From the NCBI GenBank assembly GCA_030694965.1, contig JAUYTZ010000018.1, forward strand, positions 81,559 through 145,558: a stretch of 64,000 nucleotides of DNA. The letters run 5' to 3'. Shown piece after piece: positions 9,465 through 63,997 of the stretch. The translations under genes and the position numbers were made by a program. Positions within the stretch are counted from its first letter, which is position 1; every line of letters begins with the position of its first letter. The stretch is from Candidatus Paracaedibacteraceae bacterium (GTDB lineage Bacteria > Pseudomonadota > Alphaproteobacteria > Paracaedibacterales > CAIOTO01). Below the pieces are notes generated by a model. It was not told where the DNA came from. It saw nothing but the letters and a program-made list of their open reading frames with translations, and did no database searches.

Positions 9465-9944
9465 TTACGTGGTTTTTTGACCTGCAGCAGCGACGGCAAT
9501 CTGTACAAGCGGGATTGCAATTGAGGCAACGGCATCTGCTTTGGATACGATATTATTAATTTTTGTGATATCTGCTTGTGCGTATGGGTTAATGGTTAAT
9601 GCTACTGTTTCTGCATTTTTAAGAGCCGCACTTGTAGTTGTTGATTCAGCCACTTTAGAAGCCCCGTCAAGAACAGTTTGTGCTGTGCTTAATTCAGCAA
9701 CTAAGTGAGTATTTCCAGTGGCTGCAGCTGTTGCTTGTGCAAGAGTTATTGCATGAGTGCCTATCGCTTGTGCTATTGGCACATCTTTTTGTGCAGCATG
9801 AACAACGTGTGTAGCAGATATTGATATTTTTTTAAGTCCACTTTCTAATTTTTCAAGAGCATTCCCTTTGCCAGCAAACACATGACCGGTACTAGAACCA
9901 ATTAGAATCGCGAACATTACGGCTTTATTTGTGAGTTTAGACAT
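9465..9944 (-). CDS. secreted Ala/Thr-rich hypothetical protein
   Basis: 159 aa. N-terminal signal-peptide-like MSKLTNKAVMFAILIGSSTGHVFA, then a low-complexity helical Ala-rich sequence. No family recognised. Confidence 0.55.
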   Translation of the reverse strand: MSKLTNKAVMFAILIGSSTGHVFAGKGNALEKLESGLKKISISATHVVHAAQKDVPIAQAIGTHAITLAQATAAATGNTHLVAELSTAQTVLDGASKVAESTTTSAALKNAETVALTINPYAQADITKINNIVSKADAVASIAIPLVQIAVAAAGQKTT

Positions 9945-13911: not shown

Positions 13912-15114
13912 TTAATGTTTTGCGTAATCATCAAAACCTTCAGGTAATTTTACGCGTGGTTCAATAAATGACAGCAACGGGTATAGTACAACAAAGTGAA
14001 AAAAATAATAGGCTGTGCACAAACGACCTAAAATTAAATAGATTCCTTCAGGCGGCTTTCCGCCAACCCAGCCAAGTACAAAACAGTTCGCAAGAAATAC
14101 CCAGAAAAAATATTTGTAATAGGGGCGGAAACGTCCGCTACGTACAGGATGTTTGTCTAGAAATGGTAAAATAAACAAGACAAAAATAGCGCCAAACATA
14201 GCCATAACGCCGCCAAGCTTGCTTGGGATCGACCTTAAAATAGCGTAAAAAGGTAAGAAATACCATTCAGGAACGATATGAGGCGGCGTAACCATTGGGT
14301 TTGCTGGAATGTAGTTGTCTGGTTCACCAAAAAAATTCGGCGTAAAGAAGATTAATGCTGAAAAAATGAGCAGGTAAACGCTTAAGCCAAATAGATCTTT
14401 AATCGTATAAAATGGGTGAAACGGTACGCTGTCAGATGGCTTTGTGCGTTCAATGCCAAGCGGATTATTTGATCCAAATTGATGCAAAGCAACTAAGTGC
14501 AACATTGTCACCGCAATGATTAAAAATGGAAATAAATAATGCAGCACAAAGAAACGATTTAATGTTGGGTTATCTACAGAAAAACCACCCCATAACCAGT
14601 GCACGATGGCTTCACCGCCAGGAAAAGCTGAAAACAAGTTGGTGATTACGGTTGCTCCCCAAAAGCTCATTTGTCCCCATGGTAAGACATAGCCCATGAA
14701 TGCAGTTGCCATCATAAGTAGTAGAATTACAACCCCAATCATCCAAAGGAGTTCGCGGGGGGCTTTATACGAACCATAGTAAAGGCCGCGCGCCATGTGA
14801 GCATAGACGACTATGAAGAACATGGACGCACCATTCATATGAATATAGCGAATGAGCCAACCACCATTTACGTCGCGCATAATGCTTTCAACGCTATCAA
14901 AGGCATGGTCAACGTGCGGCACATAGTGCATTGCTAAAAAAATGCCGGAGATGATCATAATGACAAGTGTGATGCCCGCAAGGGATCCAAAATTCCAAAG
15001 GTAATTTAAGTTTTTTGGCGTTGGGTATTCAGCTAATTCTTTATTAATAAAATGAAAAACTGGAAGACGCGCATCAATCCATTTGATGACTGAGTTCATA
15101 TGATTAAAGTCCAT
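13912..15114 (-). CDS. petB: cytochrome b (bc1 complex)
   Basis: 400 aa. [13 protein letters not shown], heme-ligand regions [12 protein letters not shown] and [10 protein letters not shown], and the Qo PEWY motif ([13 protein letters not shown]). Confidence 0.93.
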
Positions 15115-15590
15115 GCTGCGTTATTAAAATTTATGATTTTATGATGGCTTGGTGGTCGCCTTTTTGCAAGAGGAGAGTTTTAAAAAGTATAAACTTATGC
15201 TGTGCTCAATTTGGAATTAAGTTCGAGGCGTTAGGTTTTAAAATGTGAAAACTATAACATTTTGACATAACCTAGTATCACATACTTGAGGCAGCATTCT
15301 TTGGTGCCTTTAAACATGGGAAGGTCAATACACCCAAGAAGGACGAACTTTTTATTACATGAAGGAACAGTCTATTAAAGTACATCTTAGCAATTTGTTT
15401 GATGTTATTGATATTAGGAAAGCTAAAGATTCCACAGCCAATGTGGCTCATCGTCCTGATAAAATGTGGTTAAATATTTTAGTAAAAAAGGTTTAAGCGA
15501 TCACGGTGTAATTTTTCTATATTCTTTGATTTTGCCAAAAAATATTCAACTGCATTACACTTTTTATAAAGGTGTTTATCGTAATCAATA

Positions 15591-16088
15591 CTAACGATCT
15601 TTTCGATCAATTCGAACTGGAAAGTTAATCATTTCAAATCCGTGTTTTAGTTGCAGGGCGCCAGATACAAAGATATCAAGTGACTGTTTTTGTGAGTCGT
15701 AGTCGCTAATGGTTACTTTTGTGTTTTTAAGACGAGGTTCAAATAAGTTAATTGATTTTTCGCACAAATTTATGATTTTTCGCCTGTCGAGGGTGTTTAA
15801 TGCATCAAAAGATTGAAAATCATTAAACCCAAATAAGGCAGGTAAGCCAAAATAAATAGCGTCATCTTCAACATCATCATAGAAAGCTTGTCGCGCACTG
15901 CGACGTGTATTTAGAATATGTGATACTTCATTGATAACAGAGGCCAATAATTCATCGTAGCCTAAAAAAGCTTGATAATTTTGATCCCACTTCGAGTGTG
16001 GATCTTCATCCGCAAAACGATCAAAAAAAGGTATAGCTGTACCTAAAATTGTTTTTGGCTCTGTTTTGAAAAGATTATCTTTGCTCAT
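15591..16088 (-). CDS. tssE: type VI secretion baseplate wedge protein TssE (gp25-like)
   Basis: 165 aa. GPW/gp25 pattern LLASVINEVSHILNTRRS...YFGLPALFGF...INLFEPRL. Starts 3 nt after the hcp-like stop. Confidence 0.8.
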   Translation of the reverse strand: MSKDNLFKTEPKTILGTAIPFFDRFADEDPHSKWDQNYQAFLGYDELLASVINEVSHILNTRRSARQAFYDDVEDDAIYFGLPALFGFNDFQSFDALNTLDRRKIINLCEKSINLFEPRLKNTKVTISDYDSQKQSLDIFVSGALQLKHGFEMINFPVRIDRKDR

Positions 16089-16091
16089 GAA

Positions 16092-16658
16092 TTATTCCGC
16101 TGTGTTTTTAATATAATCTGTTTTACTAACCATTTGTCCTGTGCAAAGACCTGTTTGATCGTAAACAAAAACAGTATTGGTTTTAACTGAAATCATGACG
16201 TGCACAATCATGCGATCAAGCTGCTGTTGGCACCGTTGAATACGGCAATTATTAAATTCAAGTGTTTGCAAGGGGACTTTATTATTTAAGACTGCACCTA
16301 TGTGCGTTATCACAATGCTGTCTAAATATTCACAACGATTCATTTTTGTTTCAATTTGTGCACTATGACCGCCAAAGGGAATAATCAAGATAAGGTCTGT
16401 GTGGCGTAATGTTGATGATGCAAGATTTGGACCACCACTTACTGGTGTTGCAGAAAGACAATTTGATTCTCCTTGCCATCCAAAAAGTTCAATGTAATTT
16501 GTATACCCATCAATTTCTGACGTAGTTATATTGTCAATTTTAATCATCCATTCAGGGGATCTTGCGCTCAAGAAAGAATCATTGTTTTGCGCATCTGTTG
16601 TGGCTACACGAAATTCACCTTTGCCAGGCAAATCGACAAGTTGAAAATTGTTTGGCAT
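16092..16658 (-). CDS. hcp: divergent Hcp/TssD-like tube protein with N-terminal extension
   Basis: 188 aa. WMIKIDNITTSEIDGYTNYIELFGWQGES aligns with the Hcp N-terminus (MFIKI..GES..IEVLSWSWG), followed by later beta-strand patterns. AGGAG lies 6 nt upstream of the ATG at 16658. The gene sits in the position hcp occupies in tssBC-hcp-tssE loci. Confidence 0.65.
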   Translation of the reverse strand: MPNNFQLVDLPGKGEFRVATTDAQNNDSFLSARSPEWMIKIDNITTSEIDGYTNYIELFGWQGESNCLSATPVSGGPNLASSTLRHTDLILIIPFGGHSAQIETKMNRCEYLDSIVITHIGAVLNNKVPLQTLEFNNCRIQRCQQQLDRMIVHVMISVKTNTVFVYDQTGLCTGQMVSKTDYIKNTAE

Positions 16659-16709
16659 TTAGTTCTCCTGTTGGATAATTCACTTGCGCAAATAAGAATA
16701 TATAAGACC

Positions 16710-18158
16710 TTACTTTGCAGGTGGTGGTAATGTAGCTACTAATCGTATAGACGCTGTAAGTTCTTCCATTTGGAAATGTGGTCTTAAGTAGACGACCGCG
16801 CGATAAGAGCCTGGCTGCCCTGGTACATCAAACACATCAATTCGCCCTTCGCGCAATGGATATTTAGCTTTAATACTTTGTGGCGCATCGTCATTTAAAA
16901 GGATATAGTTTGCGATCCATGTATTAAGGAAAAGCTCAACCTTGTCCCGTGTCATGAATGACCCGATCTTATCGCGCATCATTACTTTTATGTAATGTGC
17001 AAAACGTGATGCCGCAAGCACATAAGGTAAACGCGCGGAAAGCATTGCATTGGCATTTGCGTCATCAATGTCATAAAGACGTGGTCGTTGAACAGTTTGT
17101 GCGCCAAAGAACGCAGCATAGTCAGTGCCTTTACAGTGGCAAAGCGCTATAAAACCTTGGTCACTTAATTCTTTTTCACGGCGATCAGTAATTGCAACTT
17201 CGGTTGGGCATTTTAATGACACGTCGCCTGCTGTTGTTTTGAATGAATACGCTGGTAAGTTTTCCACTAATCCTCCGCCTTCAACGCCGCGAATAGCTGC
17301 AGTCCAGCCATAGTTTGAAAATGCATTGGTGATACGTTCAGCCATGACATAAGCCGGATTTCCCCAACAAAAGAGTTTTGTGTCTGTGCCATTCACATCT
17401 TCTATGAAGTTGAATCCATCAATAGGGGAGGTGTCTGGTCCATACGGAAGGCGCATTAAAACACGTGGTAAGAATAGGGATACGTATCTGGAATCTTCGC
17501 TGTTACGGAAGCTGTTCCATTTTGCAAGTTCTTGGCTTTGAAATGTTTTTGCAAGGTCGCGCGGAGCTGATATATTTTCAAAACTATCTAAGTCAAATAG
17601 TTTTGGATTTGCTGCTGTTAAAAGCGGTGCGTGGGCAGCTGCTGCCACAGCGGATAGTTTTTCTAAAAAGTTTAAGTCAAGCGCGCTACGTGAAAATTCA
17701 AAATCAGCAACTAAGCACGAGTAAGGGTGACCACCAAATGTGCCATATTCTTCTTCGTATACTTTTTTAAAGAGGTGGCTTTGATCAAATTCAGGTGATC
17801 GTTCAAGATCTTCAATCAGTTCTTTTTTAGATGTATTAAGCAAGCGCAATTTAAGTTTATTACTTGTTTTGGTATTTGACACAAGATAGTGAAGTCCTCT
17901 CCATGACCCCTCTAACTTTAAAAACTTTGGATCATGCAAAAATTCATTTAGCTGAGCTGTGATCAACTCATCTAATTGCCTGATGCGTTCTGAAATAAAT
18001 GCGCTAATATTTGAATGTGCAATATTTCCTTGTTGAAGTAGCTGATTAGCAAATTCAGTTAAAAGTTCGCGTGCAAAGGGTTTTTGGCTTTCATCATGAA
18101 CCATCTTTCCTTCAATCATAAGGGTATCAAGAACAGATGTCTTTGTATCCTCAGCCAT
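16710..18158 (-). CDS. tssC: type VI secretion sheath large subunit TssC (VipB)
   Basis: 482 aa. YGTFGGHPYSCLVADFEF, WGNPAYVMAERIT, CPTEVAITDRREKELSDQGFI. GGGAGA SD upstream of the ATG. Confidence 0.93.
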   Translation of the reverse strand: MAEDTKTSVLDTLMIEGKMVHDESQKPFARELLTEFANQLLQQGNIAHSNISAFISERIRQLDELITAQLNEFLHDPKFLKLEGSWRGLHYLVSNTKTSNKLKLRLLNTSKKELIEDLERSPEFDQSHLFKKVYEEEYGTFGGHPYSCLVADFEFSRSALDLNFLEKLSAVAAAAHAPLLTAANPKLFDLDSFENISAPRDLAKTFQSQELAKWNSFRNSEDSRYVSLFLPRVLMRLPYGPDTSPIDGFNFIEDVNGTDTKLFCWGNPAYVMAERITNAFSNYGWTAAIRGVEGGGLVENLPAYSFKTTAGDVSLKCPTEVAITDRREKELSDQGFIALCHCKGTDYAAFFGAQTVQRPRLYDIDDANANAMLSARLPYVLAASRFAHYIKVMMRDKIGSFMTRDKVELFLNTWIANYILLNDDAPQSIKAKYPLREGRIDVFDVPGQPGSYRAVVYLRPHFQMEELTASIRLVATLPPPAK

Positions 18159-18215
18159 AATTATCTCCCTGTAACTCAGTATCTTTTATTATTTTTTGGT
18201 TGTTTTGCTATTTTC

Positions 18216-18803
18216 TTATTTTGGGTCTAATTCATCATCTGAATTATTTTGATCAGCTTGGTAGTCATTCGTTTCTTTTTTCATGCGTATGCTTGGCATA
18301 AATGATTTTTTAATTAAGCCAAGTTCGATTAGAAGTGACTCGCGCTTATCTGGGTCATGAACAATATCGTTAAGCAGCTGTTCAAGCACGTCATTACCAT
18401 CTAGTTTTGCGAGCAAATCTTTAAGGTGAATACGTGATTCATAGAGTTTTAATAAAGCTGGGACCTGTTTTACGATGCTGAGCGGCTTAAAGTCATCCAT
18501 GCTTTCAAAGCGTAAATCTGCTTTTAATTTGCTATCATTATTAAAAAGTTTGTTGCTTGCATTAAGTGAAAGCGCTGGCTGAATAAATGACATAATATCA
18601 TCGAAATTATCAGCATCGATGTCTATGAATTTCTTATCTTTGATTTTTACTGTGTCAGAATGCATGCCTGAAAGATTTGCCATAATACCAACAACAAAGG
18701 GAAGCTCTTTGATTTCTGTTGTATCTCCCACAAGAACGTCATAGGTAATCTGCACGCGTGGTGCGCGAACGCGATCGATTTTATGTTGTGTGTTCTCGGA
18801 CAT
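18216..18803 (-). CDS. tssB: type VI secretion sheath small subunit TssB (VipA)
   Basis: RAPRVQITYDV...ELPFVVGIMANLSG...FESMDDFKP. The second ATG (18803) has GGGAG 6 nt upstream and is preferred to the track start at 18833. Confidence 0.9.
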   Translation of the reverse strand: MSENTQHKIDRVRAPRVQITYDVLVGDTTEIKELPFVVGIMANLSGMHSDTVKIKDKKFIDIDADNFDDIMSFIQPALSLNASNKLFNNDSKLKADLRFESMDDFKPLSIVKQVPALLKLYESRIHLKDLLAKLDGNDVLEQLLNDIVHDPDKRESLLIELGLIKKSFMPSIRMKKETNDYQADQNNSDDELDPK

Positions 18804-18982
18804 AACTAGCTCCCATTGTGTACTGTTTTGCATTCAAAACTACTCAGCAGTGCACATTCAAAATTTAAATATCGTATAAACGCAATTGTTCATAATTCAA
18901 TTTGACACTTTGAAAATTAAGATTTGGTTAATTTTATAAAATTTAAGAGAATTTTTCTTTTTATTGTTTAAAATGGTGGGAA

Positions 18983-19015
18983 TAAAAAAAATAGATGACA
19001 CCCTGTGACATCTAT
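18983..19015 (-). terminator. rho-independent terminator of pgk
   Basis: Hairpin atagatg(a)cac-cct-gtg(a)catctat at 18991-19015. On the minus strand it is followed by an 8-T run with one interruption (complement of ataaaaaaa, 18982-18990). Confidence 0.75.
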
Positions 19016-19051
19016 TTTGTAAATTTTATATACGTTTCTAGAAGGAATTCT

Positions 19052-22011: not shown

Positions 22012-22770
22012 ATGAAAAAGAATATTTTATCAATTTTAAGTCTTGCGCTTTTATTAGGGGTTGGTATTAGCGAACTAAGTGCATCAACACCGCCAGCATC
22101 TGGAACAGGTGAAAATTCAGCAAGTGCTGCAGTAGTAACAGAAGAGCAAGCAAAGCAAAAGGTCGAAGCACTTAAAAAATTATTGGATCAAAGTAACATC
22201 GTACCAGTTAATGAAACATTAGAAAATAAAATAGCTAGATTAAATAAAAGTAGAAAATTTAGAGTTGAACTTAAAGAAGCAAAAAATGTTTTAAGCACAG
22301 TGAGTGATAAAAAAATGCAAGATCAAACAGCTCAAGCGCATCAAGAACTGGAACAACGAGTTGCATCTCATACAGCAAAATTTCAGGACCGTGCAGCTAT
22401 TCGTGATGATCAATCTAGGGTATTTGAGGCCGCTGCAGCAAGTATCAAAGAATCGCATAAGGAAATGCAGGAAAGGATAAAGCGTGGTGAGGTTCTAACA
22501 GAAGAAAAGTTACATAATAGCATGTTGCAGTTACAAAGAAAAAAAGAAGACATTGCAGGAAAAATAATGGAACAACATGATAAACGTGAAGCACTGAACG
22601 ACTTGATGGCTGAAATACAAGCTGAAATAATTCTAACAAATAAAAAAGCTGAAAACCTGCAGAGCCAAAACAATATTGTTATGGATCTTTTAGTGAGGCG
22701 GGAAGTTGAGTTAAAGAGCATGAAGATGGCAGTTGGTAAGCTTGATTTGCCTTCTCCTGATGCTAATTGA
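22012..22770 (+). CDS. secreted coiled-coil protein (hypothetical)
   Basis: 252 aa. Signal peptide MKKNILSILSLALLLGVGISELSA, then charged E/K/Q-rich sequence that looks heptad-like (coiled coil judged by eye). Confidence 0.6.
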   Translation: MKKNILSILSLALLLGVGISELSASTPPASGTGENSASAAVVTEEQAKQKVEALKKLLDQSNIVPVNETLENKIARLNKSRKFRVELKEAKNVLSTVSDKKMQDQTAQAHQELEQRVASHTAKFQDRAAIRDDQSRVFEAAAASIKESHKEMQERIKRGEVLTEEKLHNSMLQLQRKKEDIAGKIMEQHDKREALNDLMAEIQAEIILTNKKAENLQSQNNIVMDLLVRREVELKSMKMAVGKLDLPSPDAN

Positions 22771-22851
22771 CTCACTGCTTTAAAGGGGAGTCGTGAATGC
22801 AGGAGGGCTAATGTTTCTACCTCACCGCATTCGGTGCTTGGTAATTCAAAA

Positions 22852-23316
22852 ATGGTGTTACAAAAGAAAACGCTAGGTTCTTTTCCGTCTGTAGAAAGTA
22901 GTGATCGAAAGGTAGATTCTTCTAAAGCAAGGGGAGAGCTAGCTAAAAGCTCTCTTCAAAAAGGAGCTCCTACGGCAAATAATAGTAAGAGAAGCCCGGC
23001 TATTCAATATGATGCAGCGAGCATGAGAACTCCTAAGAAGTTAAGTGCTAATGAGTCAGGAAGCACGTCACAGGAAAGTTTGAGCTCTAGTAACTTACTT
23101 GTAACCCCTGGACCAACAAAAAATCGTCAACCTGGTTCTTCTTTTGCTAAAAAGTCTGCTTCATCTGCTGAACAGTCCTCCATAAATTCATCAAAAAAGG
23201 CTTGGAAAATTACAGGGGGTTCTATGAGTCCTGAAAAAAGTACTGTTGCAGAAAAAATTGGTGCAAAAGAAGGAAACGGTGATGGAAAAGTAGCCAAGAA
23301 ATTAGATTTTAAGTAA
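22852..23316 (+). CDS. Ser/Lys-rich intrinsically disordered hypothetical protein
   Basis: 154 aa from the ATG at 22852 (the track starts at GTG 22834). No signal peptide, low complexity. Coding status is uncertain. Confidence 0.4.
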   Translation: MVLQKKTLGSFPSVESSDRKVDSSKARGELAKSSLQKGAPTANNSKRSPAIQYDAASMRTPKKLSANESGSTSQESLSSSNLLVTPGPTKNRQPGSSFAKKSASSAEQSSINSSKKAWKITGGSMSPEKSTVAEKIGAKEGNGDGKVAKKLDFK

Positions 23317-24142: not shown

Positions 24143-24961
24143 ATGTGTTTTTTTCTTTTTCTTTTATTTATTTGCTTTGGGTTAACTAGTGTCATTGCTC
24201 CTACATTTGCAAAAACAGCATATTGTACTACGCACTGTAAAACGGATCTTCAGGTAATGAGCAAAACTTGCCAAGCAGAAGCCATTACTGGAGAATATGG
24301 GTGTTTTCTAAATTGCGTTGGGGTTAAAGGTTCGCCTGGTATAAGTAAGCAAATTGATTTTTGCGTGCTTCATCAAAAGGCGCATAGAGAAGAAGCACAA
24401 AAAATAGCTGAAACAGCTGAAAAAGAACGTCATAGACGTGAGGCTGAACGTCAAGCTATTGAAGCTAATCGTCATAGAAATAATGTTACGATTATAAATG
24501 CTTTATTAACTAGGGCTATAACTGCAAAGAACGTTGCAGAGGAAAGCTTAACTGAAGAGCGAAATCGTGCACAGCAGCTTGCGACTATTATTCAGCTGAT
24601 TGAAGACGAGCACAGTGAATTAGATGCAGAGCACTTAGCATATAAAGCTGAGAAGGATGAATATCTGCGTGTCTTAACAACGTTATATGCCACAACTCTG
24701 GAAGATGTTCATAAAATGGAAGTAATAAGCCAAATGGCACATGATATATCTAATTCTCTTGATTTTAAAGCAAGAAGGCTTGAAGAGATAGCACTTGTTT
24801 TAGGTAATGTACGTGCTTCAGCTTTGCTGGAAGAGGCCGAACATACTCAAATGAGAACTGAACTTGCTGCAGCAGACATACAAATAAGATTCTTAAGCGA
24901 AGCAGTGAGCGCGTTAGAAAATACTGGATTGCCTGCAATGCCTTCTCCAGTCGCAGAATAA
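24143..24961 (+). CDS. secreted protein: N-terminal Cys-rich module plus coiled coil (hypothetical)
   Basis: 272 aa. Hydrophobic leader ending APTFA-K, 7 Cys in residues ~28-74, then an E/R/A-rich helical region. Confidence 0.6.
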   Translation: MCFFLFLLFICFGLTSVIAPTFAKTAYCTTHCKTDLQVMSKTCQAEAITGEYGCFLNCVGVKGSPGISKQIDFCVLHQKAHREEAQKIAETAEKERHRREAERQAIEANRHRNNVTIINALLTRAITAKNVAEESLTEERNRAQQLATIIQLIEDEHSELDAEHLAYKAEKDEYLRVLTTLYATTLEDVHKMEVISQMAHDISNSLDFKARRLEEIALVLGNVRASALLEEAEHTQMRTELAAADIQIRFLSEAVSALENTGLPAMPSPVAE

Positions 24962-41020: not shown

Positions 41021-42409
41021 TTACTTAATAATAATTACATTCAAATCAGAATCAATTTTAAAAGAAATATTGTTTAATAAAGCGGGATTGTCTCGAACTT
41101 GTCCAGCCGCTTTATTGAAATTTAAAGTTAACTGGGGATTGTAAGGTACGTTTGTTTTTCCAGTTCTATATGCTCGCAAAACTTGAGCAATAAATACACT
41201 TCCTTTTGTAATGCACTCTTGAATTGCTTGATATCTTGTTAAACCTTGCTTTTCTAAAGTGCTTGAAAGATTCACTAACAAAGCAGGAACATATGTTGGC
41301 GTTCTTTCTGTTCTGTATGTTAAAGGATCAAGCTCTTCTTGTAAAAGCATTTTCTGATCAAATGAAAGGGAGGCATAGGCATCTTTTAGGGCTTTTCCTT
41401 CTTCTTTTGAAAAGAGCCTAAGCATTGAGCCGATGCGTGCTAAAATGTATATTTGTTTGTTTTTGTCTAAACCTAATAAATTCGCCCGAGCATGTATATA
41501 ATGCTCCATTGCTTCTTTTTCACTATGTTCTTTCAGGAAATGGATAGCCTCTTTTACAGATTCTATAGATTTGAATGTATTTTCAGTGAGCACCTTTGAC
41601 CCACTGTTATCTTCATGGCCGCGCGCTCCGCTTACGTCACAAATATGGGTAAGGATTTCAAAATCAAATTCCTTTAAATCTTTGTCAAGGGTACCTGATT
41701 GTTTTAGCTTTGTAAGAATTTCTGGGCCACCTTCTACATGTGTAACGTGGCCAAAGTGCACTAGCCCATTCACTTTTTTTAGAATTTTTTTAGCTTTATC
41801 AGAAATTGATAAGAATGTTGGAAATATTCCAGGGCATTTCTTTAGGCATGCGTCAAGAAAAATATCATGATCTGATTCAATAATTCCATACTTTTTTGCC
41901 TTAAGACGTGCTGTTTGCGTTTTCCCCATGTCACCTAAAATAAGATTGACTTCCAAAGTTTGAAGAAAGTGTAAATCGTTTTCAATAATACTGTTAGCAA
42001 ATTCATGGAGACGCTTGAAGCTAACAAGCGAAAGCTTATCTTTTTGAGGTTGAAGTGAGGTAAAACGTTTATAAGCTTGATCACTTCCATTAACAATTAA
42101 ATGTAAACTAACAATACTTAAAATTGTTCTTTCAAATTCAGGATAATGCTTTCCTTTGAGCTTTTTCGACCAGCTATGCTCATATTTATATTGCTCAGAT
42201 TTCCCTTCTTGAGTATGTTGAACGGCATCACTTAAAAGCCATTCGAGCTCAGGATATTCTTTGATTTTGTTTTCTACCCATGATTTTTCCCCCAATTCAC
42301 TTAATGCAGGGACAGTAAAGGTTGCATTTGCAGGTGCTGGAAATAATAAGAAAAAAGATATTGCTGCATGAAAAAAAATACTTTTATAAAAATAATTAAT
42401 TTTTTTCAT
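41021..42409 (-). CDS. secreted hypothetical protein with degenerate HD-like and His-rich motifs
   Basis: 462 aa. Signal peptide MKKINYFYKSIFFHAAISFFLLFPAPANA. Motifs LILGDMGKT, ESDHDIFLD, HFGHVTHVEGG, THICDVSGARGHED. No family confidently recognised. Confidence 0.6.
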   Translation of the reverse strand: MKKINYFYKSIFFHAAISFFLLFPAPANATFTVPALSELGEKSWVENKIKEYPELEWLLSDAVQHTQEGKSEQYKYEHSWSKKLKGKHYPEFERTILSIVSLHLIVNGSDQAYKRFTSLQPQKDKLSLVSFKRLHEFANSIIENDLHFLQTLEVNLILGDMGKTQTARLKAKKYGIIESDHDIFLDACLKKCPGIFPTFLSISDKAKKILKKVNGLVHFGHVTHVEGGPEILTKLKQSGTLDKDLKEFDFEILTHICDVSGARGHEDNSGSKVLTENTFKSIESVKEAIHFLKEHSEKEAMEHYIHARANLLGLDKNKQIYILARIGSMLRLFSKEEGKALKDAYASLSFDQKMLLQEELDPLTYRTERTPTYVPALLVNLSSTLEKQGLTRYQAIQECITKGSVFIAQVLRAYRTGKTNVPYNPQLTLNFNKAAGQVRDNPALLNNISFKIDSDLNVIIIK

Positions 42410-46772: not shown

Positions 46773-47441
46773 TTACTTCGCTGCAGGAGCTGCTACTGGC
46801 ATTGCAGCCGCTGGAGTTGTTGCTGAAGCAACTGGAGCTTCAACTTTTTTGTCAGCTTTTGGAGCTTCAATTTTTGCTGCATCTTTTGGAGCTTCAATTT
46901 TTGCTGCATCTTTTGGAGCTTCAATTTTTGCTGCGTCTTTTGGAGCTTCAATTTTTGCTGCGTCTTTTGGAGCATCAACTTTTGCTGCGTCTTTTGAAGA
47001 GTCAGCTTTTGGAGCATCAACTTTTACAGCATCAACTTTTGGTGCATGTGCTTTTTTGCTTTTTTTACCAGCTTTTTTGCTGTGCTTGTGTTCTTTGCAA
47101 TCTTTGCTACATTCTTTTATTTTGATTTCGCCTGGTACATAAACGTGACTAGCATCTGCGTTGAAGGCATCAGTAAGCTTGTTGTCGCGTGAGTGTCCGC
47201 TACCTTTTTTTGATTCTTTAGCGTGCTTGTCATCTTTTTTGACAGCATCTATTTTGCCGTGGTCAGCTACTGCTGGAACTGAAGCCATTACAGGTGCAGC
47301 ACCAATTACTGGGGCTGAGGCTGTAGGCATTGGAGCCATTACAGGTGCTGGAGCTGCTGGCATTGGAGCCGCAGCTGGTGCAGCGCAATAACCAGAAGTA
47401 GTTCCAATTAGTACTAGTACAAGATTTAACATTTTTTTCAT
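46773..47441 (-). CDS. secreted Ala/Pro- and Lys-rich tandem-repeat protein (hypothetical)
   Basis: 222 aa. Signal peptide MKKMLNLVLVLIGTTSGYCA, an AP-rich segment, a basic His/Lys segment, then 9-aa repeats K(I/V)(E/D)APKDAA. Confidence 0.65.
   Translation of the reverse strand: MKKMLNLVLVLIGTTSGYCAAPAAAPMPAAPAPVMAPMPTASAPVIGAAPVMASVPAVADHGKIDAVKKDDKHAKESKKGSGHSRDNKLTDAFNADASHVYVPGEIKIKECSKDCKEHKHSKKAGKKSKKAHAPKVDAVKVDAPKADSSKDAAKVDAPKDAAKIEAPKDAAKIEAPKDAAKIEAPKDAAKIEAPKADKKVEAPVASATTPAAAMPVAAPAAK
46857..46991. repeat. 27-bp in-frame tandem repeat (about 5 copies plus degenerate flanking copies)
   Basis: Unit ttttggagcttcaatttttgctgcatc repeats head-to-tail from 46857. Degenerate copies extend to about 46827 and 47045. 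Confidence 0.9.
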
Positions 47442-48832: not shown

Positions 48833-50737
48833 TTATTTTGCTACACAAGAATTATCGCCTCTTGCGCCTTTTGACCATTTGCACATCCCGCTACCTGCAT
48901 TCTTGCAAATTGACCTTGAGGTAATGCCTTCACATTTAAACTCGCAACCTGTTGGTTCTTTCCAAATGCAATGAGATGATCGTGTTTGACAATCATAGAG
49001 TTGTTTACCTTGGCAATTCTTTTGTGCGCTCATAATAAGATCTGGGTTATTCAAATCATAAATAGGTGGCCCCATGTCTTTTTCAGCTTTAAGCGCTGCC
49101 TTTACGGTTGATTGAGCTGCTTCATTAGCAAGCGCTGCTGCGCGTGCGGCCTGTAAAAGCGGTTCAACAAGTTTTTTTGCTTTATGCGCTGCATGCGCAG
49201 ATTCTTCAAGAGGAAGAACAGCTGCATGCTGTGCTGAGTTTGCTTTAGACATAGCATGGAATGCTTTTCTTAAATCACTTGCGTGAGTTGCTGCTTTTTG
49301 TTTGTCTGTTGCCGATGAGGTTTCATCGGATTGAATAATATTGTTTGATTCCGCAGCCAGTTTTGACGCCTGTTCAAGCGATTCCATTGTCTTTTGTTCT
49401 GATTTTTCAATATCTGATAAGAGTAATTGAGCGCCAATAGCAAGATCAGCTGCTTCTTCCACCGCTTTAGCGACGGCATTTGCTGCATATATAGCTGCTG
49501 CTGCTGCCTGGCGTGCTAACTTTTCTGCCATAAGCTTGTATTCAGTTAAATTTTCTGCAACTACATTGCGTTGTATTTGCATTTGTTCTTTTAAGTTTAT
49601 AGGTAATATTACTTTCTGCGCAGTGTCTGGCTTGGTTGTTGTTGATATGTTGTCTTTTGATTTTGCTATATCACGTTGAATAATTACACTGGTATTATTA
49701 TTTGCACGAGTTGTTGATGCTTTGGTTGCAGGTGTCATAGAGAGTGTTTCTGTAGTAGGCTTGATTGGCATTGCATCGGCGTTTAATGCTTTATTTATTG
49801 ATACTTGCTGTGTGTTGGTAGTTGCTGTGGTTGGTATTGTAGTAGGTGCGGATTGAACAGACGCAAGGGCAGGAATTGGGGCAGCCGGTTTTTTTTGAAA
49901 GTTTGAAAAGAGACTAGAAGCAATATTTTGAGCACTCGATGGTAGTTGAGGTATGGAAGATGCTACAGCTAGTAAGCTCTTTGAAGCGATAGGCTCTGTT
50001 TGTGTGGCTGCTGCTGTAGTAGAAGCATTTGTTTCACTGGAAGTCTTAGAGTCTGCAGAAGAAATTGGTGCTGCTTGAGGCGCTGCTGTAGTAGAAGCAT
50101 TTGTTTCATTGGAGGTCGCAGAGTCTGCAGAAGAAATTGGTGCTGCTTGAGGCGCTGCTGTAGTAGAAGCATTTGTTTCATTGGAGGTCGCAGAGTCTGT
50201 AGAAGAAGTTGGCATTGCCTGAGGCGCTGCTATAGTAGAAGCATTTGTTTCATTGAAGGTCACAGAGTCTGCAGAAGAAGTTGGCATTGCCTGAGGCACT
50301 GCTATAGTAGAAGCATTTGTTTCATTGGAAGTCGTAGAATCTGTAGAAGAAGCTGGCACTGCCTGAGGCGCTGCTGTAGTGGAAGTGTTTGTTTCATTGA
50401 AGGTCGCTGAATCTGCAGAAGAAGTTGGTGCCGTTTGAGGAGCTGCTGTAGTAGAAGTATTTGTTTCACTGGAGGTAGCAGAATCTGTAGAGGTCCTGTT
50501 TGTTATGGTTGGGATTTCAAAATCATCTATGGGTGCTTGCGTTTTAGTAGTCTCTGTGTTTGAATCCGTGTTAGTTGTGGATGTTGTATTTGATACAGCA
50601 AAGTCATCTACAGGTGCTGGACTTGAAGATGTGGTTGCTGCTGTTTCCTCTGTTGAGTAAGAATAGCTTATGTGAAAAATGACCGCTAAAAGCACATAAA
50701 GAATTTTGTTTTTATTTATAATTTTCATCACATTCAC
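48833..50737 (-). CDS. secreted mucin-like Ser/Thr-rich repeat protein with Ala-rich helical region and C-terminal 8-Cys module
   Basis: 634 aa. Signal/anchor KILYVLLAVIFHISYS, about 7 copies of the 24-aa repeat APQAxPxSSxDSxTxNETNASTxA, an Ala-rich helical middle, and 8 Cys in the last ~60 aa including an RGD. Confidence 0.7.
   Translation of the reverse strand: MNVMKIINKNKILYVLLAVIFHISYSYSTEETAATTSSSPAPVDDFAVSNTTSTTNTDSNTETTKTQAPIDDFEIPTITNRTSTDSATSSETNTSTTAAPQTAPTSSADSATFNETNTSTTAAPQAVPASSTDSTTSNETNASTIAVPQAMPTSSADSVTFNETNASTIAAPQAMPTSSTDSATSNETNASTTAAPQAAPISSADSATSNETNASTTAAPQAAPISSADSKTSSETNASTTAAATQTEPIASKSLLAVASSIPQLPSSAQNIASSLFSNFQKKPAAPIPALASVQSAPTTIPTTATTNTQQVSINKALNADAMPIKPTTETLSMTPATKASTTRANNNTSVIIQRDIAKSKDNISTTTKPDTAQKVILPINLKEQMQIQRNVVAENLTEYKLMAEKLARQAAAAAIYAANAVAKAVEEAADLAIGAQLLLSDIEKSEQKTMESLEQASKLAAESNNIIQSDETSSATDKQKAATHASDLRKAFHAMSKANSAQHAAVLPLEESAHAAHKAKKLVEPLLQAARAAALANEAAQSTVKAALKAEKDMGPPIYDLNNPDLIMSAQKNCQGKQLYDCQTRSSHCIWKEPTGCEFKCEGITSRSICKNAGSGMCKWSKGARGDNSCVAK
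50009..50494. repeat. 72-bp in-frame tandem repeat (about 7 copies)
   Basis: gagtctgcag recurs at 50049 and 50121, and as gagtctgtag at 50193 (period 72). Adjacent central copies are nearly identical. Confidence 0.9.
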
Positions 50738-60715: not shown

Positions 60716-63700
60716 ATGCGTAAAATGTTAACGCTAGCAGCGTTCAGTTTGAATTTTATAAGCCTTTTGAATGCCTCAACAGCACTTGATATAACCACTG
60801 CATTTTCACAAGCCAAGCTTCAAACGGCAAATTTTCAGAACAATACAACTGGGCCTGTTGATATTAATATATTAACGAATATTGTAACAATTTTAAATCC
60901 AGGTGAAGAAAAAGTAATTAATGCTGCTGGTGAAAATGGTTTTTTTATTTTAAATCAGGACAAATCTAAAAAAGTTAAAAAGGTGTTGCTGCATAATCTT
61001 GATAGAAAAGTGGCTTATAAAAAGATTACTCAAAAACATATTATTCATTTAGAAGGGGGAGAGAGTCACACGACCACTGTTTCTTTGCCTTCTTCTATAA
61101 ATGGGGCTAGCCTTGCTGATGCAAATCAAGCGTATCTAAATTGGTCTATCGACAATGGTCAATTCTCAGTTTTTGTATCTGGCGAAGATAATTTGTCAAT
61201 TTTAAGCTTAGATTTAGGTGTTAATTCTACACCCATGAATAAAGTCATTTTGGATTGCGCTGAATTTAAAACGCTTGAAGAGCAATTTGAGTCGCTTGGA
61301 GGAGAATTAATAAAAATTGATACTTCGTCAATGGCAGGCTACGTATATAACCCATGCATTATTAATTATAATGAAAAAATTTATATGACATTTCGTGTTC
61401 AAGAAGGTAGAAATAATCATTCATCGAATAGTAATATTTATTTTGCTGAAATTAGTAGCCAGTTTAAAGTTATAAAGAGCTATCCATTAATTGAAGGTAC
61501 TAAGCGCAATGCAGATGCACGTTTAAGTACTTATGCTTCAAAATTGTTTATTTCATACGTTCATGACTTTTATAAGTCAGATTATAGCTTTAGTAATTAC
61601 CACCCAAATGTTCACACTTCTTTTTTCAATCCTAACGAAACTATTCAACATACAATAAAGCCAGATATAGAAAATAATTGTACTTTTGATGCTAGGCAGA
61701 AAAATTGGCTTTTTTTTGAAAAAAGTAATAAGTTTTATATTATAGATAACATTGATCCTTTGTCTCTTTGGGACGCAACTAATAGTATAGAAAGACCGAC
61801 TAAGATCTTAGTAAAGGACAAAAAATTAAATAACTGGTGTTTTGGAGAGCCAAGAGCTTCTACAAATCCAATATTTATTGAAGAAATTGGCAAATGGCTC
61901 GTCTTGTTTCACTCATGTTTGACAAATTCAGACAATATTAGAAGTTACTTCAATGGTGCGTTATTATTTGATGATGATTTTGATATTACTCACTATACAA
62001 TGCTTCCAATTATAAGTTCAACATCGCAATACTCGCGAGGATTGTCTTATCCTCTCAATGCAATTATTCCCTATGGTTGCATTAGAAATAAGAATGACTT
62101 AGTTGTTAGTTTTGGTGTTAATGACGCTATTTCAGTTATAGGACGTTTTTCACTTAATAAGATACTTAATGCATTAAATCCGGTTAAAAACAATATCTTA
62201 TTTAATTTAAATAATAAGCAATCAGTGTATCCAAATGTATCTTTTAATATTGTTACATCAAAAGCGTTGCAAGGAGAACAAGGAGTAGTAGCTTGTTATG
62301 ATCGAGCATTAAAAGGGATTAAGCTTGGTTCTTCTAATGAAAATGAAATTATTTCAAAAGGAAAAGAAAATATTGATATTGTTTTAAGCTTTCATGGAGA
62401 AAGAATACATGATTTGATTCCAAATAATTATAGCTATTTAATTACTTCAGTAATAATGAATAATTTTTACCCTTACAATAGGGATGATGTGAAATTTCGA
62501 GCTAATTTGCAGCTTGGGAGCAATTCCTATTTAAAAGGAGTTTCAAAGTATGGAATTTTAAATAAATTCTTACTTGCACATCCCCGTACAAATTTTACTC
62601 CTTTAAATATTGATAATTTAAGTATCTTTTTTTGTGGAGGTGCTTGGGATAGTCGATACCCTAATTTATTAAATATTATGGATAACAAGCCATACTTTAA
62701 TTGGTACGGCCACCCTACTCACGGCATACCTGAAAGGAATTCGTATCGTGGCTTCAGCTCAATTCCGGCACAAACAATTAAGAAGCATGGCATTGCGCTT
62801 TTATTGCATGCTAAAGCTAATATTGAAAACTCAGAACCAGCATCAAAAATATTCGAAGCAGCTGCAGGAAGCGCTGTAATTATTTCTGATAAACTTACTT
62901 TCATAACGGAAGAGTTTGGTGATGCTGTATTTTATATTGATCAAAATGACCCTGAGGAAAAAATAGCACAAGATATTGATGGCTATTATCATTGGATTAT
63001 TACTCATCCTATTGAAGCGCAAGCAATGGCAAAAAAGGCGCATTCAATTTTTGTAGAAAGATTTACTTTAGAAGATCAACTCACTAGACTAATTAGTTTT
63101 CACCAAGAGAGCTTGCCTTTAGATGGTGAATCTATTTTATTGCCTCGAGCGCCCTTTAAAGTTCGTTCTTCTATAAATAAAAAATTTTTTGATCAGGCAA
63201 TAAATATGTTATTACCAACATCTTTGTCTATAGAAGCGAGTGATTATAACAATTTCAAACCAGTTTTTTTTGTTAAATATTTAAAAAAGGATTCTGTTTT
63301 TCCAGATGTGCCTGAATATATGGTACGGACTTCGAAAATAACTGAAATTATGGAGAACATGGCAGGTTCTAGTTGTGTAGCGCATGCTTTAGATTACGCT
63401 CCTTTGATTGCAAAAAAAATGGAACTAGAATTAGGAAGTGGCTTTTATTTTTCTGGAGTAGAAACTTTAAATTATTCTGATGTTTCTTTTTCTTGGGATG
63501 GAAATAAGTTCAAAATTTATTTTAATATAAATTCTTATGAAGAAAAATATGCGACGCAAAAATCAAAAGATCCTCTTTCAAGTTCTTTAGCGGATGCGCC
63601 AATTAAGTATTTTAGAAATGTCGACTTTATTGAGGGTTTTTCACGTTTAGAAGATTGGGGTGTGTGGACAGAAAGTAATCAATGCAAAATTAGAATAATT

Positions 63701-63997
63701 ATGAGTTCATTGGAATTAAATAAAAAATATGAGATTTCTTTTAAAATGAGTAGTTATACACCTAAAAAAGATTCATGCGTTGATTTGCAATTATTAGTAA
63801 ATAATGTAGTTGTAAACCAATCAAGATTTACAAAAGATTCAAACATGCAGACTTTATCAGTCTTTTATACTAAAGAAGTAGAAAAAGATTTAGTCATAAA
63901 TTTTTTGTTGAATGGGATTTCTTCGCCTTTTGAGAATAATGAAAATATGGATTATCGTAGATTAGGTGTTTCAATTAGGGACATTATTATTAAATAA
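60716..63997 (+). CDS. large Sec-signal multidomain protein with GT-B (CgeB/Glyco_trans_1_2-like) glycosyltransferase half and beta-rich flanking domains
   Basis: 1093 aa. Signal peptide MRKMLTLAAFSLNFISLLNASTA. Residues ~190-480 are beta-propeller-like (YNPCIINYNEKIYMTFRV, QKNWLFFEKSNKFYIID). Residues ~640-790 are GT1-like (SKIFEAAAGSAVIISD...AQAMAKKAHSIFVERFTLEDQL). The C-terminal ~130 aa are beta-sandwich-like (GFSRLEDWGVWTES...DYRRLGVSIRDIII). Confidence 0.7.
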   Translation: MRKMLTLAAFSLNFISLLNASTALDITTAFSQAKLQTANFQNNTTGPVDINILTNIVTILNPGEEKVINAAGENGFFILNQDKSKKVKKVLLHNLDRKVAYKKITQKHIIHLEGGESHTTTVSLPSSINGASLADANQAYLNWSIDNGQFSVFVSGEDNLSILSLDLGVNSTPMNKVILDCAEFKTLEEQFESLGGELIKIDTSSMAGYVYNPCIINYNEKIYMTFRVQEGRNNHSSNSNIYFAEISSQFKVIKSYPLIEGTKRNADARLSTYASKLFISYVHDFYKSDYSFSNYHPNVHTSFFNPNETIQHTIKPDIENNCTFDARQKNWLFFEKSNKFYIIDNIDPLSLWDATNSIERPTKILVKDKKLNNWCFGEPRASTNPIFIEEIGKWLVLFHSCLTNSDNIRSYFNGALLFDDDFDITHYTMLPIISSTSQYSRGLSYPLNAIIPYGCIRNKNDLVVSFGVNDAISVIGRFSLNKILNALNPVKNNILFNLNNKQSVYPNVSFNIVTSKALQGEQGVVACYDRALKGIKLGSSNENEIISKGKENIDIVLSFHGERIHDLIPNNYSYLITSVIMNNFYPYNRDDVKFRANLQLGSNSYLKGVSKYGILNKFLLAHPRTNFTPLNIDNLSIFFCGGAWDSRYPNLLNIMDNKPYFNWYGHPTHGIPERNSYRGFSSIPAQTIKKHGIALLLHAKANIENSEPASKIFEAAAGSAVIISDKLTFITEEFGDAVFYIDQNDPEEKIAQDIDGYYHWIITHPIEAQAMAKKAHSIFVERFTLEDQLTRLISFHQESLPLDGESILLPRAPFKVRSSINKKFFDQAINMLLPTSLSIEASDYNNFKPVFFVKYLKKDSVFPDVPEYMVRTSKITEIMENMAGSSCVAHALDYAPLIAKKMELELGSGFYFSGVETLNYSDVSFSWDGNKFKIYFNINSYEEKYATQKSKDPLSSSLADAPIKYFRNVDFIEGFSRLEDWGVWTESNQCKIRIIMSSLELNKKYEISFKMSSYTPKKDSCVDLQLLVNNVVVNQSRFTKDSNMQTLSVFYTKEVEKDLVINFLLNGISSPFENNENMDYRRLGVSIRDIIIK

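What the first reader, a model, noticed from the sequence alone, without database searches (positions are those of the whole stretch)
15591..18833. Stand-alone tssB-tssC-hcp-tssE operon with no other T6SS core genes in 64 kb
Four intact, tightly packed genes (gaps of 57, 51 and 3 nt, good SD sites) encode only the contractile sheath, the tube and the gp25-like wedge. Upstream, pgk ends in its own hairpin plus T-run terminator (18983-19015), so the module has its own promoter. Downstream of tssE, where canonical T6SS-i loci continue with tssF-tssG, there are 476 bp of non-coding DNA and then cytochrome b. I recognise no TssA/F/G/J/K/L/M, ClpV, VgrG or PAAR ORF anywhere in the window. There are three readings. 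(a) The apparatus is scattered across the genome. (b) This minimal sheath/tube/wedge module works with a non-canonical baseplate or membrane anchor. (c) It is a young relic. Readings (a) and (b) would both be unusual for an alphaproteobacterial, symbiont-like genome and deserve follow-up.
Basis: partly seen in the sequence, partly recalled or inferred. Interest (0 to 1): 0.7.

Follow-up and report, generated by a model that had tools for sequence, protein, structure and literature searches.

The report
Sheath-tube module of scattered symbiont T6SS

Summary
Four intact minus-strand genes at 15591-18833 encode TssB, TssC, a 188-aa protein and TssE, with the stated gaps, and a hairpin plus T-run follows pgk. 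Pfam scans and custom HMMs find no other T6SS core gene in the 64 kb. Pfam, NCBIfam and PDB sequence searches do not recognise the 188-aa protein. Profile-profile comparison (98.4%, E 9e-15) and a predicted fold whose best PDB matches are nearly all Hcp show it is a divergent Hcp with about 35 extra N-terminal residues.

The source is a Candidatus Paracaedibacteraceae (Holosporales) MAG. Midha et al. [quoted passage not shown] So reading (a), a scattered apparatus, is the known norm and not unusual.

The same module with housekeeping flanks occurs in 15 related genome loci. One metagenomic relative has tssK-L-M 3 kb upstream. All four genes show dN/dS far below 1, which argues against a relic.

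I could not reach the rest of this genome, so the other modules are inferred. Low interest.

The parts
18983..19017 (-). Intrinsic terminator of pgk: a 13-bp stem, a 3-nt loop and a T-run
   Evidence: Read directly. The RNA fold centroid keeps this hairpin, z = -2.2.
18834..18982 (-). AT-rich intergenic region presumed to hold the module's own promoter (inferred, not mapped)
   Evidence: It lies between the pgk terminator and tssB. The sigma-70 consensus scan gave no more sites than shuffled sequence.
18216..18833 (-). tssB (VipA), small sheath subunit. The likely true start is the ATG at 18803.
   Evidence: PF05591 E 8e-48 and TIGR03358 164.7 bits. A GGGAG Shine-Dalgarno site sits before 18803.
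16710..18158 (-). tssC (VipB), large sheath subunit
   Evidence: TIGR03355 672 bits. PDB sheath chains 9n4v, 5n8n, 5urw and 5mxn match at E 1e-219 to 1e-113.
16092..16658 (-). Divergent Hcp (tube protein) with an N-terminal extension of about 35 residues. This subfamily is missed by Pfam and NCBIfam.
   Evidence: No HMM hit. hhalign against canonical Hcp gives 98.4%, E 9e-15. AF2 pLDDT is 70.6 overall and above 80 for the core residues 90-180. Foldseek top hits are Hcp1 chains 4w64, 4tv4 and 1y12.
15591..16088 (-). tssE, gp25-like baseplate wedge, probably translationally coupled to hcp (3-nt gap)
   Evidence: TIGR03357 62.9 bits and PF04965.
15115..15590 (-). 476-nt non-coding spacer between tssE and cytochrome b. 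It contains no tssF.
   Evidence: The custom TssF/TssG HMMs found nothing there.

Best explanation
This is the sheath-tube-wedge transcription unit (tssB-tssC-hcp-tssE) of a Holosporales-type type VI secretion system. Its remaining core genes are encoded in separate small modules elsewhere on the chromosome, expected as tssG-tssF, tssK-L-M-A, vgrG and a PAAR-like DUF4280 gene. The unit has its own promoter region downstream of the pgk terminator. In the standard T6SS model, TssE joins TssF, TssG, TssK and VgrG in the baseplate, which docks on TssL and TssM. Hcp hexamers stack into the tube and TssB/TssC polymerise around it. Contraction expels Hcp, VgrG and effectors, presumably into the protist host. 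Shown here: the gene identities, the Hcp fold, conservation of the module, purifying selection, and isolation from other T6SS genes within 64 kb. Inferred: the presence of the other modules in this genome, expression, and the target.
For: The identities of TssB, TssC and TssE are above curated equivalog cutoffs. Hcp is supported by profile-profile comparison and by fold. The source is named Candidatus Paracaedibacteraceae bacterium, locus tag Q8S21_04535, in the order Holosporales. The published conserved arrangement for this family has four or more separate modules including [tssB-tssC-hcp] (PMC8163844). In the complete Ca. Bodocaedibacter genome the locus tags are scattered: TssF/G 00125-6, TssE 00258, VgrG 00353 and 00355, K/L/M/A about 00934-7, B/C/Hcp 00985-7, and DUF4280 01201; the paper reports them as transcribed at low levels, though DUF4280 has zero reads in its table. 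Fifteen related genome loci carry tssB-tssC plus this Hcp type with housekeeping flanks and no other T6SS core gene within 10 kb. Examples are uvrB after tssE in Caedibacter sp. and cytb in L002. The metagenome relative L088/L089 has TssK, TssL and TssM confirmed by Pfam, then two housekeeping genes, then tssB-C-hcp-tssE. Synonymous sites are saturated (pS 0.56-0.79) while pN is 0.03-0.31, giving dN/dS of 0.02-0.3, similar to the housekeeping controls.
Against: The other modules were not seen in this genome. The genome is not among the species representatives scanned, where the best TssC match was 89%. Two protein searches aimed at its TssF and TssM returned only canonical or unrelated lineages. 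It is a MAG, so completeness is unknown. ClpV does not appear in the published Holosporales component list, so sheath recycling is unexplained.
Confidence: 0.85

Rival explanations
1. A minimal sheath/tube/wedge module that works without canonical TssF, G, K, L and M, using a non-canonical baseplate or membrane anchor.
For: No other core gene lies in 64 kb or in about 15 kb of extensions. Hcp is unusually divergent. A review calls the Holosporales T6SS 'probably non-standard'.
Against: Relatives with the same Hcp type have canonical TssK, TssL and TssM. The complete Bodocaedibacter genome has TssA, F, G, K, L, M and VgrG. TssE has no known function apart from TssF and TssG.
Confidence: 0.05
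2. A young relic of a decaying T6SS (reading c).
For: The genome is symbiont-like with reduced, shuffled gene order. Holospora has lost its T6SS altogether.
Against: All four ORFs are intact here and in L002, L003 and L004, even though synonymous sites are saturated. dN/dS is 0.02-0.3. Shine-Dalgarno sites are preserved.
Confidence: 0.03
3. An auxiliary duplicate of tssBC-hcp-tssE that accompanies a complete canonical T6SS cluster elsewhere.
For: It cannot be excluded without the whole genome. Orphan hcp and vgrG islands are common in other bacteria.
Against: In the complete Bodocaedibacter genome only one tssB, one tssC and one hcp are listed. None of the 15 related genome loci with this Hcp type sits in a full cluster.
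Confidence: 0.05

Closest known systems
Scattered T6SS of Paracaedibacteraceae, Bodocaedibacteraceae and Caedimonadaceae (Midha et al. 2021, ISME J, PMC8163844; Ca. Bodocaedibacter vickermanii CPBP_00985-00987)
   Same: A [tssB-tssC-hcp-like] module flanked by housekeeping genes. The Hcp is recognisable only as 'Hcp1-like superfamily'. The bacterial family is the same in NCBI taxonomy.
   Different: Here tssE directly follows hcp with a 3-nt gap. In Bodocaedibacter tssE (CPBP_00258) sits alone. tssE is also adjacent in L002-L004, Caedibacter sp. L059 and L068, L081 and L089.
Canonical T6SS-i clusters, for example the P. aeruginosa H1-T6SS sheath (PDB 5n8n) and V. cholerae VipA/VipB/Hcp (PDB 5mxn)
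   Same: TssB, TssC and TssE are equivalog-level members. The gene order tssB-tssC-hcp-tssE is the usual core order.
   Different: The canonical continuation with tssF-tssG-clpV, seen in 43 of the fetched loci, is missing. Hcp is a long divergent subfamily.
Francisella T6SS-ii (IglA/IglB, PDB 3j9o)
   Same: A T6SS of an intracellular bacterium without a dedicated ClpV. This parallel rests on my own knowledge of Francisella.
   Different: TssC here scores only 216 bits against IglB, versus 380-730 bits against T6SS-i sheaths. It is therefore not subtype ii.

Membership tests
T6SS-i contractile sheath (TssB/TssC) | Equivalog HMMs TIGR03358 and TIGR03355 scored above their curated cutoffs | tested here: met
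   164.7 bits against a cutoff of 97.25, and 672 bits against 271.5. PDB sheath matches.
Hcp (TssD) tube protein | PF05638 match at the gathering score | tested here: not met
   No hit at E<=0.1. Among 89 family members, 22 give weak PF05638 hits, best E 1.6e-5.
Hcp (TssD) tube protein | Remote homology and the Hcp beta-barrel fold | tested here: met
   hhalign 98.4%, E 9e-15 over 152 columns. Foldseek against PDB: 54 hits at E<=1e-3, with Hcp structures making up nearly all of the 50 listed and TM up to 0.8 normalised to the target.
Hcp (TssD) tube protein | Hexameric rings that stack into a tube and are secreted | not testable with these tools
   Needs biochemistry or cryo-EM.
TssE (gp25-like wedge) | TIGR03357 or PF04965 scored above cutoff | tested here: met
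   62.9 bits against 53.2, and 34.8 bits against 27.2.
Complete T6SS (13 core components) | TssA, F, G, K, L, M and VgrG present in the same genome | not testable with these tools
   Absent from the window. They are present in relatives.
Complete T6SS (13 core components) | ClpV (TssH) and TssJ | not tested
   Neither is in the window. ClpV is absent from the published Bodocaedibacter list, which has only a TssJ-like lipoprotein.
Holosporales scattered T6SS layout | A tssB-tssC-hcp module isolated among housekeeping genes in a Holosporales genome | tested here: met
   Flanked by pgk, sodB and hfq upstream and cytb and topA downstream. Taxon. The same pattern is seen in 15 related genome loci.
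eCIS / T6SS-iv / phage-tail-like particle | A single phage-type sheath protein with tail-tube and baseplate genes, and no split TssB/TssC | tested here: not met
   The sheath is the split TssB/TssC pair of T6SS-i. No phage baseplate genes are in the window.

The most novel reading that the evidence does not exclude
The Holosporales T6SS could be a distinct, streamlined subclass of T6SS-i. Its marks would be a long, N-terminally extended Hcp subfamily (about 250 clusters at 50% identity, largely invisible to Pfam and NCBIfam), no dedicated ClpV, and core genes dispersed as small independently transcribed modules. Assembly or recycling would then differ mechanistically from model systems. A still less likely reading is that this MAG has lost the other modules and the four genes act alone.
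Probability: 0.2. Interest if true: 0.5.

Novelty: already known. Interest (0 to 1): 0.2.

Why it matters
T6SS is the leading candidate for how Holosporales symbionts manipulate or 'addict' their protist hosts, so correct annotation of its parts matters. The practical point is that the tube protein of this lineage escapes Pfam and NCBIfam and is usually labelled 'hypothetical'. That fits a recent review's statement that the tube component is apparently lacking. Profile-profile comparison and fold evidence here show the tube gene is present and conserved. The isolated position of the module is not a discovery.

Tried and rejected
1. Pfam, NCBIfam and PDB sequence searches on the 188-aa protein found nothing. 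Profile-profile comparison and fold search were needed.

2. The consensus promoter/terminator scan gave no more sites than chance and missed the pgk terminator. Direct reading and folding recovered it.

3. I tried to find this genome's TssF with a 43-sequence TssF profile. Only the best 120 canonical TssF proteins were listed, and none came from Holosporales or carried a Q8S21 tag.

4. I tried to find its TssM using the TssM of L088, a relative with the same Hcp type. That protein is only 22-28% identical to its next hits, none from this genome. The two contigs I followed up were ordinary contiguous clusters of other bacteria.

5. Extending the window through the Logan contigs showed only housekeeping and glycosyltransferase genes.

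6. The eCIS or phage-tail reading is rejected, because the sheath is split TssB/TssC at equivalog level.

7. Subtype assignment (i1-i5) by phylogeny was not done, because no reference set was available. The best PDB match is 9n4v at 731 bits; its organism is unknown to me and no paper was found.

Full report
**Observation.** The minus strand of 15591-18833 carries four intact ORFs of 205, 482, 188 and 165 aa. They are separated by 57, 51 and 3 nt, and 476 nt of non-coding DNA lie before cytochrome b. NCBIfam equivalog models identify three of them: TssB (TIGR03358, 164.7 bits), TssC (TIGR03355, 672 bits) and TssE (TIGR03357, 62.9 bits). All three are above the curated cutoffs, and Pfam agrees. 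Strong Shine-Dalgarno sites precede tssC (AGGGAG) and the third gene (AGGAGA). For tssB the good site (GGGAG) precedes the ATG at 18803, which is probably the real start. Downstream of pgk there is a clean hairpin followed by a T-run at about 19017-18983. A consensus scan missed it.

**The third gene.** Standard tools do not support that call. There is no Pfam or NCBIfam hit at E<=0.1 and no PDB sequence hit. I collected 18 homologues, all unnamed or labelled 'hypothetical'. I also found that 15 of 81 TssC-anchored loci carry this protein directly after tssC, 37 carry a canonical Hcp there, and none carries both.
- hhalign of the two groups gives 98.4% probability, E 9e-15, over 152 columns. 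Residues 36-188 align to the whole of Hcp.
- The reference group is genuine Hcp (PF05638, E 4e-43).
- An AlphaFold2 model has mean pLDDT 70.6. The core is above 80, while residues 1-35 and 65-83 are low. It retrieves Hcp crystal structures almost exclusively, with best E 7e-10.

So the gene is hcp. It belongs to a divergent subfamily that is about 25-35 residues longer than canonical Hcp. A full HMMER scan finds about 251 clusters at 50% identity. Named members come from Candidatus Finniella, Holosporales and unclassified Alphaproteobacteria MAGs. UniRef already calls the Finniella protein 'tube protein Hcp'. Only 22 of 89 members give even weak PF05638 hits.

**Absence of other T6SS genes.** Pfam scans of essentially every ORF of 90 aa or more show housekeeping genes: dnaE, ileS-like, topA, cytb, pgk, sodB, sucABCD, mdh, rpsA and others. 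A few ORFs have no family. I built HMMs for TssA, F, G, K, L, M, ClpV and VgrG from clusters in the 80 related loci and checked their identities with Pfam. They hit nothing in a six-frame translation of the window at E<=1. Roughly 5-10 kb beyond each window end, read from a Logan assembly of SRR13727522, likewise shows no T6SS gene.

**What it is.** The 188-aa protein is recorded at NCBI as Q8S21_04535 from a 'Candidatus Paracaedibacteraceae bacterium' MAG. That family belongs to the order Holosporales. For exactly this group, Midha et al. [quoted passage not shown] Their Supplementary Table 3 lists the scattered locus tags in the closed Ca. Bodocaedibacter genome. The paper reports these genes as transcribed at low levels; the DUF4280 gene shows zero reads in the table. 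A 2025 review says the T6SS is conserved in almost all Holosporales genomes except Holospora, and that the tube and TssJ are 'apparently lacking' (PMC11909080).

My own comparison agrees.
- The closest genomes (TssC 82-89% identical: L002, L003, L004) have the same four genes with different housekeeping neighbours.
- Caedibacter sp. MAGs have tssBC, the long Hcp and tssE, followed by uvrB.
- None of the 15 related genome loci with this Hcp type has another T6SS core gene within 10 kb.
- One metagenomic relative (L088/L089) has TssK, TssL and TssM, confirmed by Pfam. A TPR protein and two housekeeping genes follow, and then tssB-tssC-hcp-tssE. This shows that this Hcp type coexists with canonical membrane-complex and baseplate genes.

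**Selection.** Against L002, L003 and L004, synonymous sites are saturated (pS 0.56-0.79). Non-synonymous divergence stays low (pN 0.03-0.31). Where computable, dN/dS is 0.02-0.07 for tssC, 0.09-0.31 for hcp, 0.08-0.23 for tssE and 0.11-0.13 for tssB. The housekeeping controls span 0.02-0.17. A relic is therefore very unlikely.

**Mechanism.** The module most likely supplies the sheath (TssB/TssC), the tube (Hcp) and one baseplate wedge subunit (TssE) of a single T6SS whose other parts are transcribed from separate modules. This mechanism is inferred from established T6SS biology.

**Limits.** I could not inspect the rest of this genome.
- The genome is not among the species representatives scanned, where the best TssC match was 89%.
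- Two searches aimed at its TssF and TssM returned only other lineages.
- The presence of the other modules in this MAG is therefore inferred from family-level precedent.
- ClpV is not in the published component list for the family, and I did not test for it.

**Verdict.** The feature is real and the observation accurate. The layout is the published norm for this family, so the finding is not novel. The small additions are the fold and profile evidence that the 'missing' tube protein is a divergent Hcp, and the observation that tssE is attached to the module in this and several related lineages.

Noticed in passing
window 13912-15114 (-): Cytochrome b stands alone. tssE lies upstream and topA downstream, with no adjacent Rieske (petA) or cytochrome c1 gene. 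The Rieske protein that sits next to cytb in Caedibacter sp. (L059) has no tblastn match anywhere in the window. The usual petABC operon appears broken up in this lineage.
   Followed up: partly
window 48833-50737 (-), 22012-22770 (+), 22834-23316 (+), 24143-24961 (+), 9465-9944 (-), 46773-47441 (-): These ORFs, including one of 634 aa, have no Pfam family at E<=0.01. They may be lineage-specific symbiont proteins and could be secreted effectors. None was examined further.
   Followed up: no
window 60716-63997 (+) and the Logan extension L082: A 1093-aa protein with only faint glycosyl-hydrolase and glycosyltransferase hits lies in the lowest-GC part of the window (0.31-0.36). A 629-aa GT61-like protein follows it. 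This may be an acquired surface-glycan island.
   Followed up: no
L088 1-10726 and L089 (JGI contigs Ga0208106_1000592 and Ga0214919_10000527): A relative with tssK-tssL-tssM, then a 455-aa TPR protein in the position where tssA is expected but not recognised as ImpA_N. A redoxin gene and truA follow, then tssB-tssC-hcp-tssE. This may be an intermediate stage of cluster break-up.
   Followed up: partly
window 16710-18158 (-): The best solved-structure match of TssC is PDB 9n4v, deposited as 'DUF877 family protein' with 24 chains, at 731 bits. That is far above the P. aeruginosa, Myxococcus and Vibrio sheaths. No paper citing this entry was found.
   Followed up: partly
window 16554-16658 (-), Hcp residues 1-35: The N-terminal extension of the long Hcp carries a conserved motif (NFQ[IL]VDLPGKG.FR[IV]ATTD) but is modelled with low confidence. 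Its role is unknown.
   Followed up: no
window 41021-42409 (-): A 462-aa DUF6829 protein sits among housekeeping genes.
   Followed up: no
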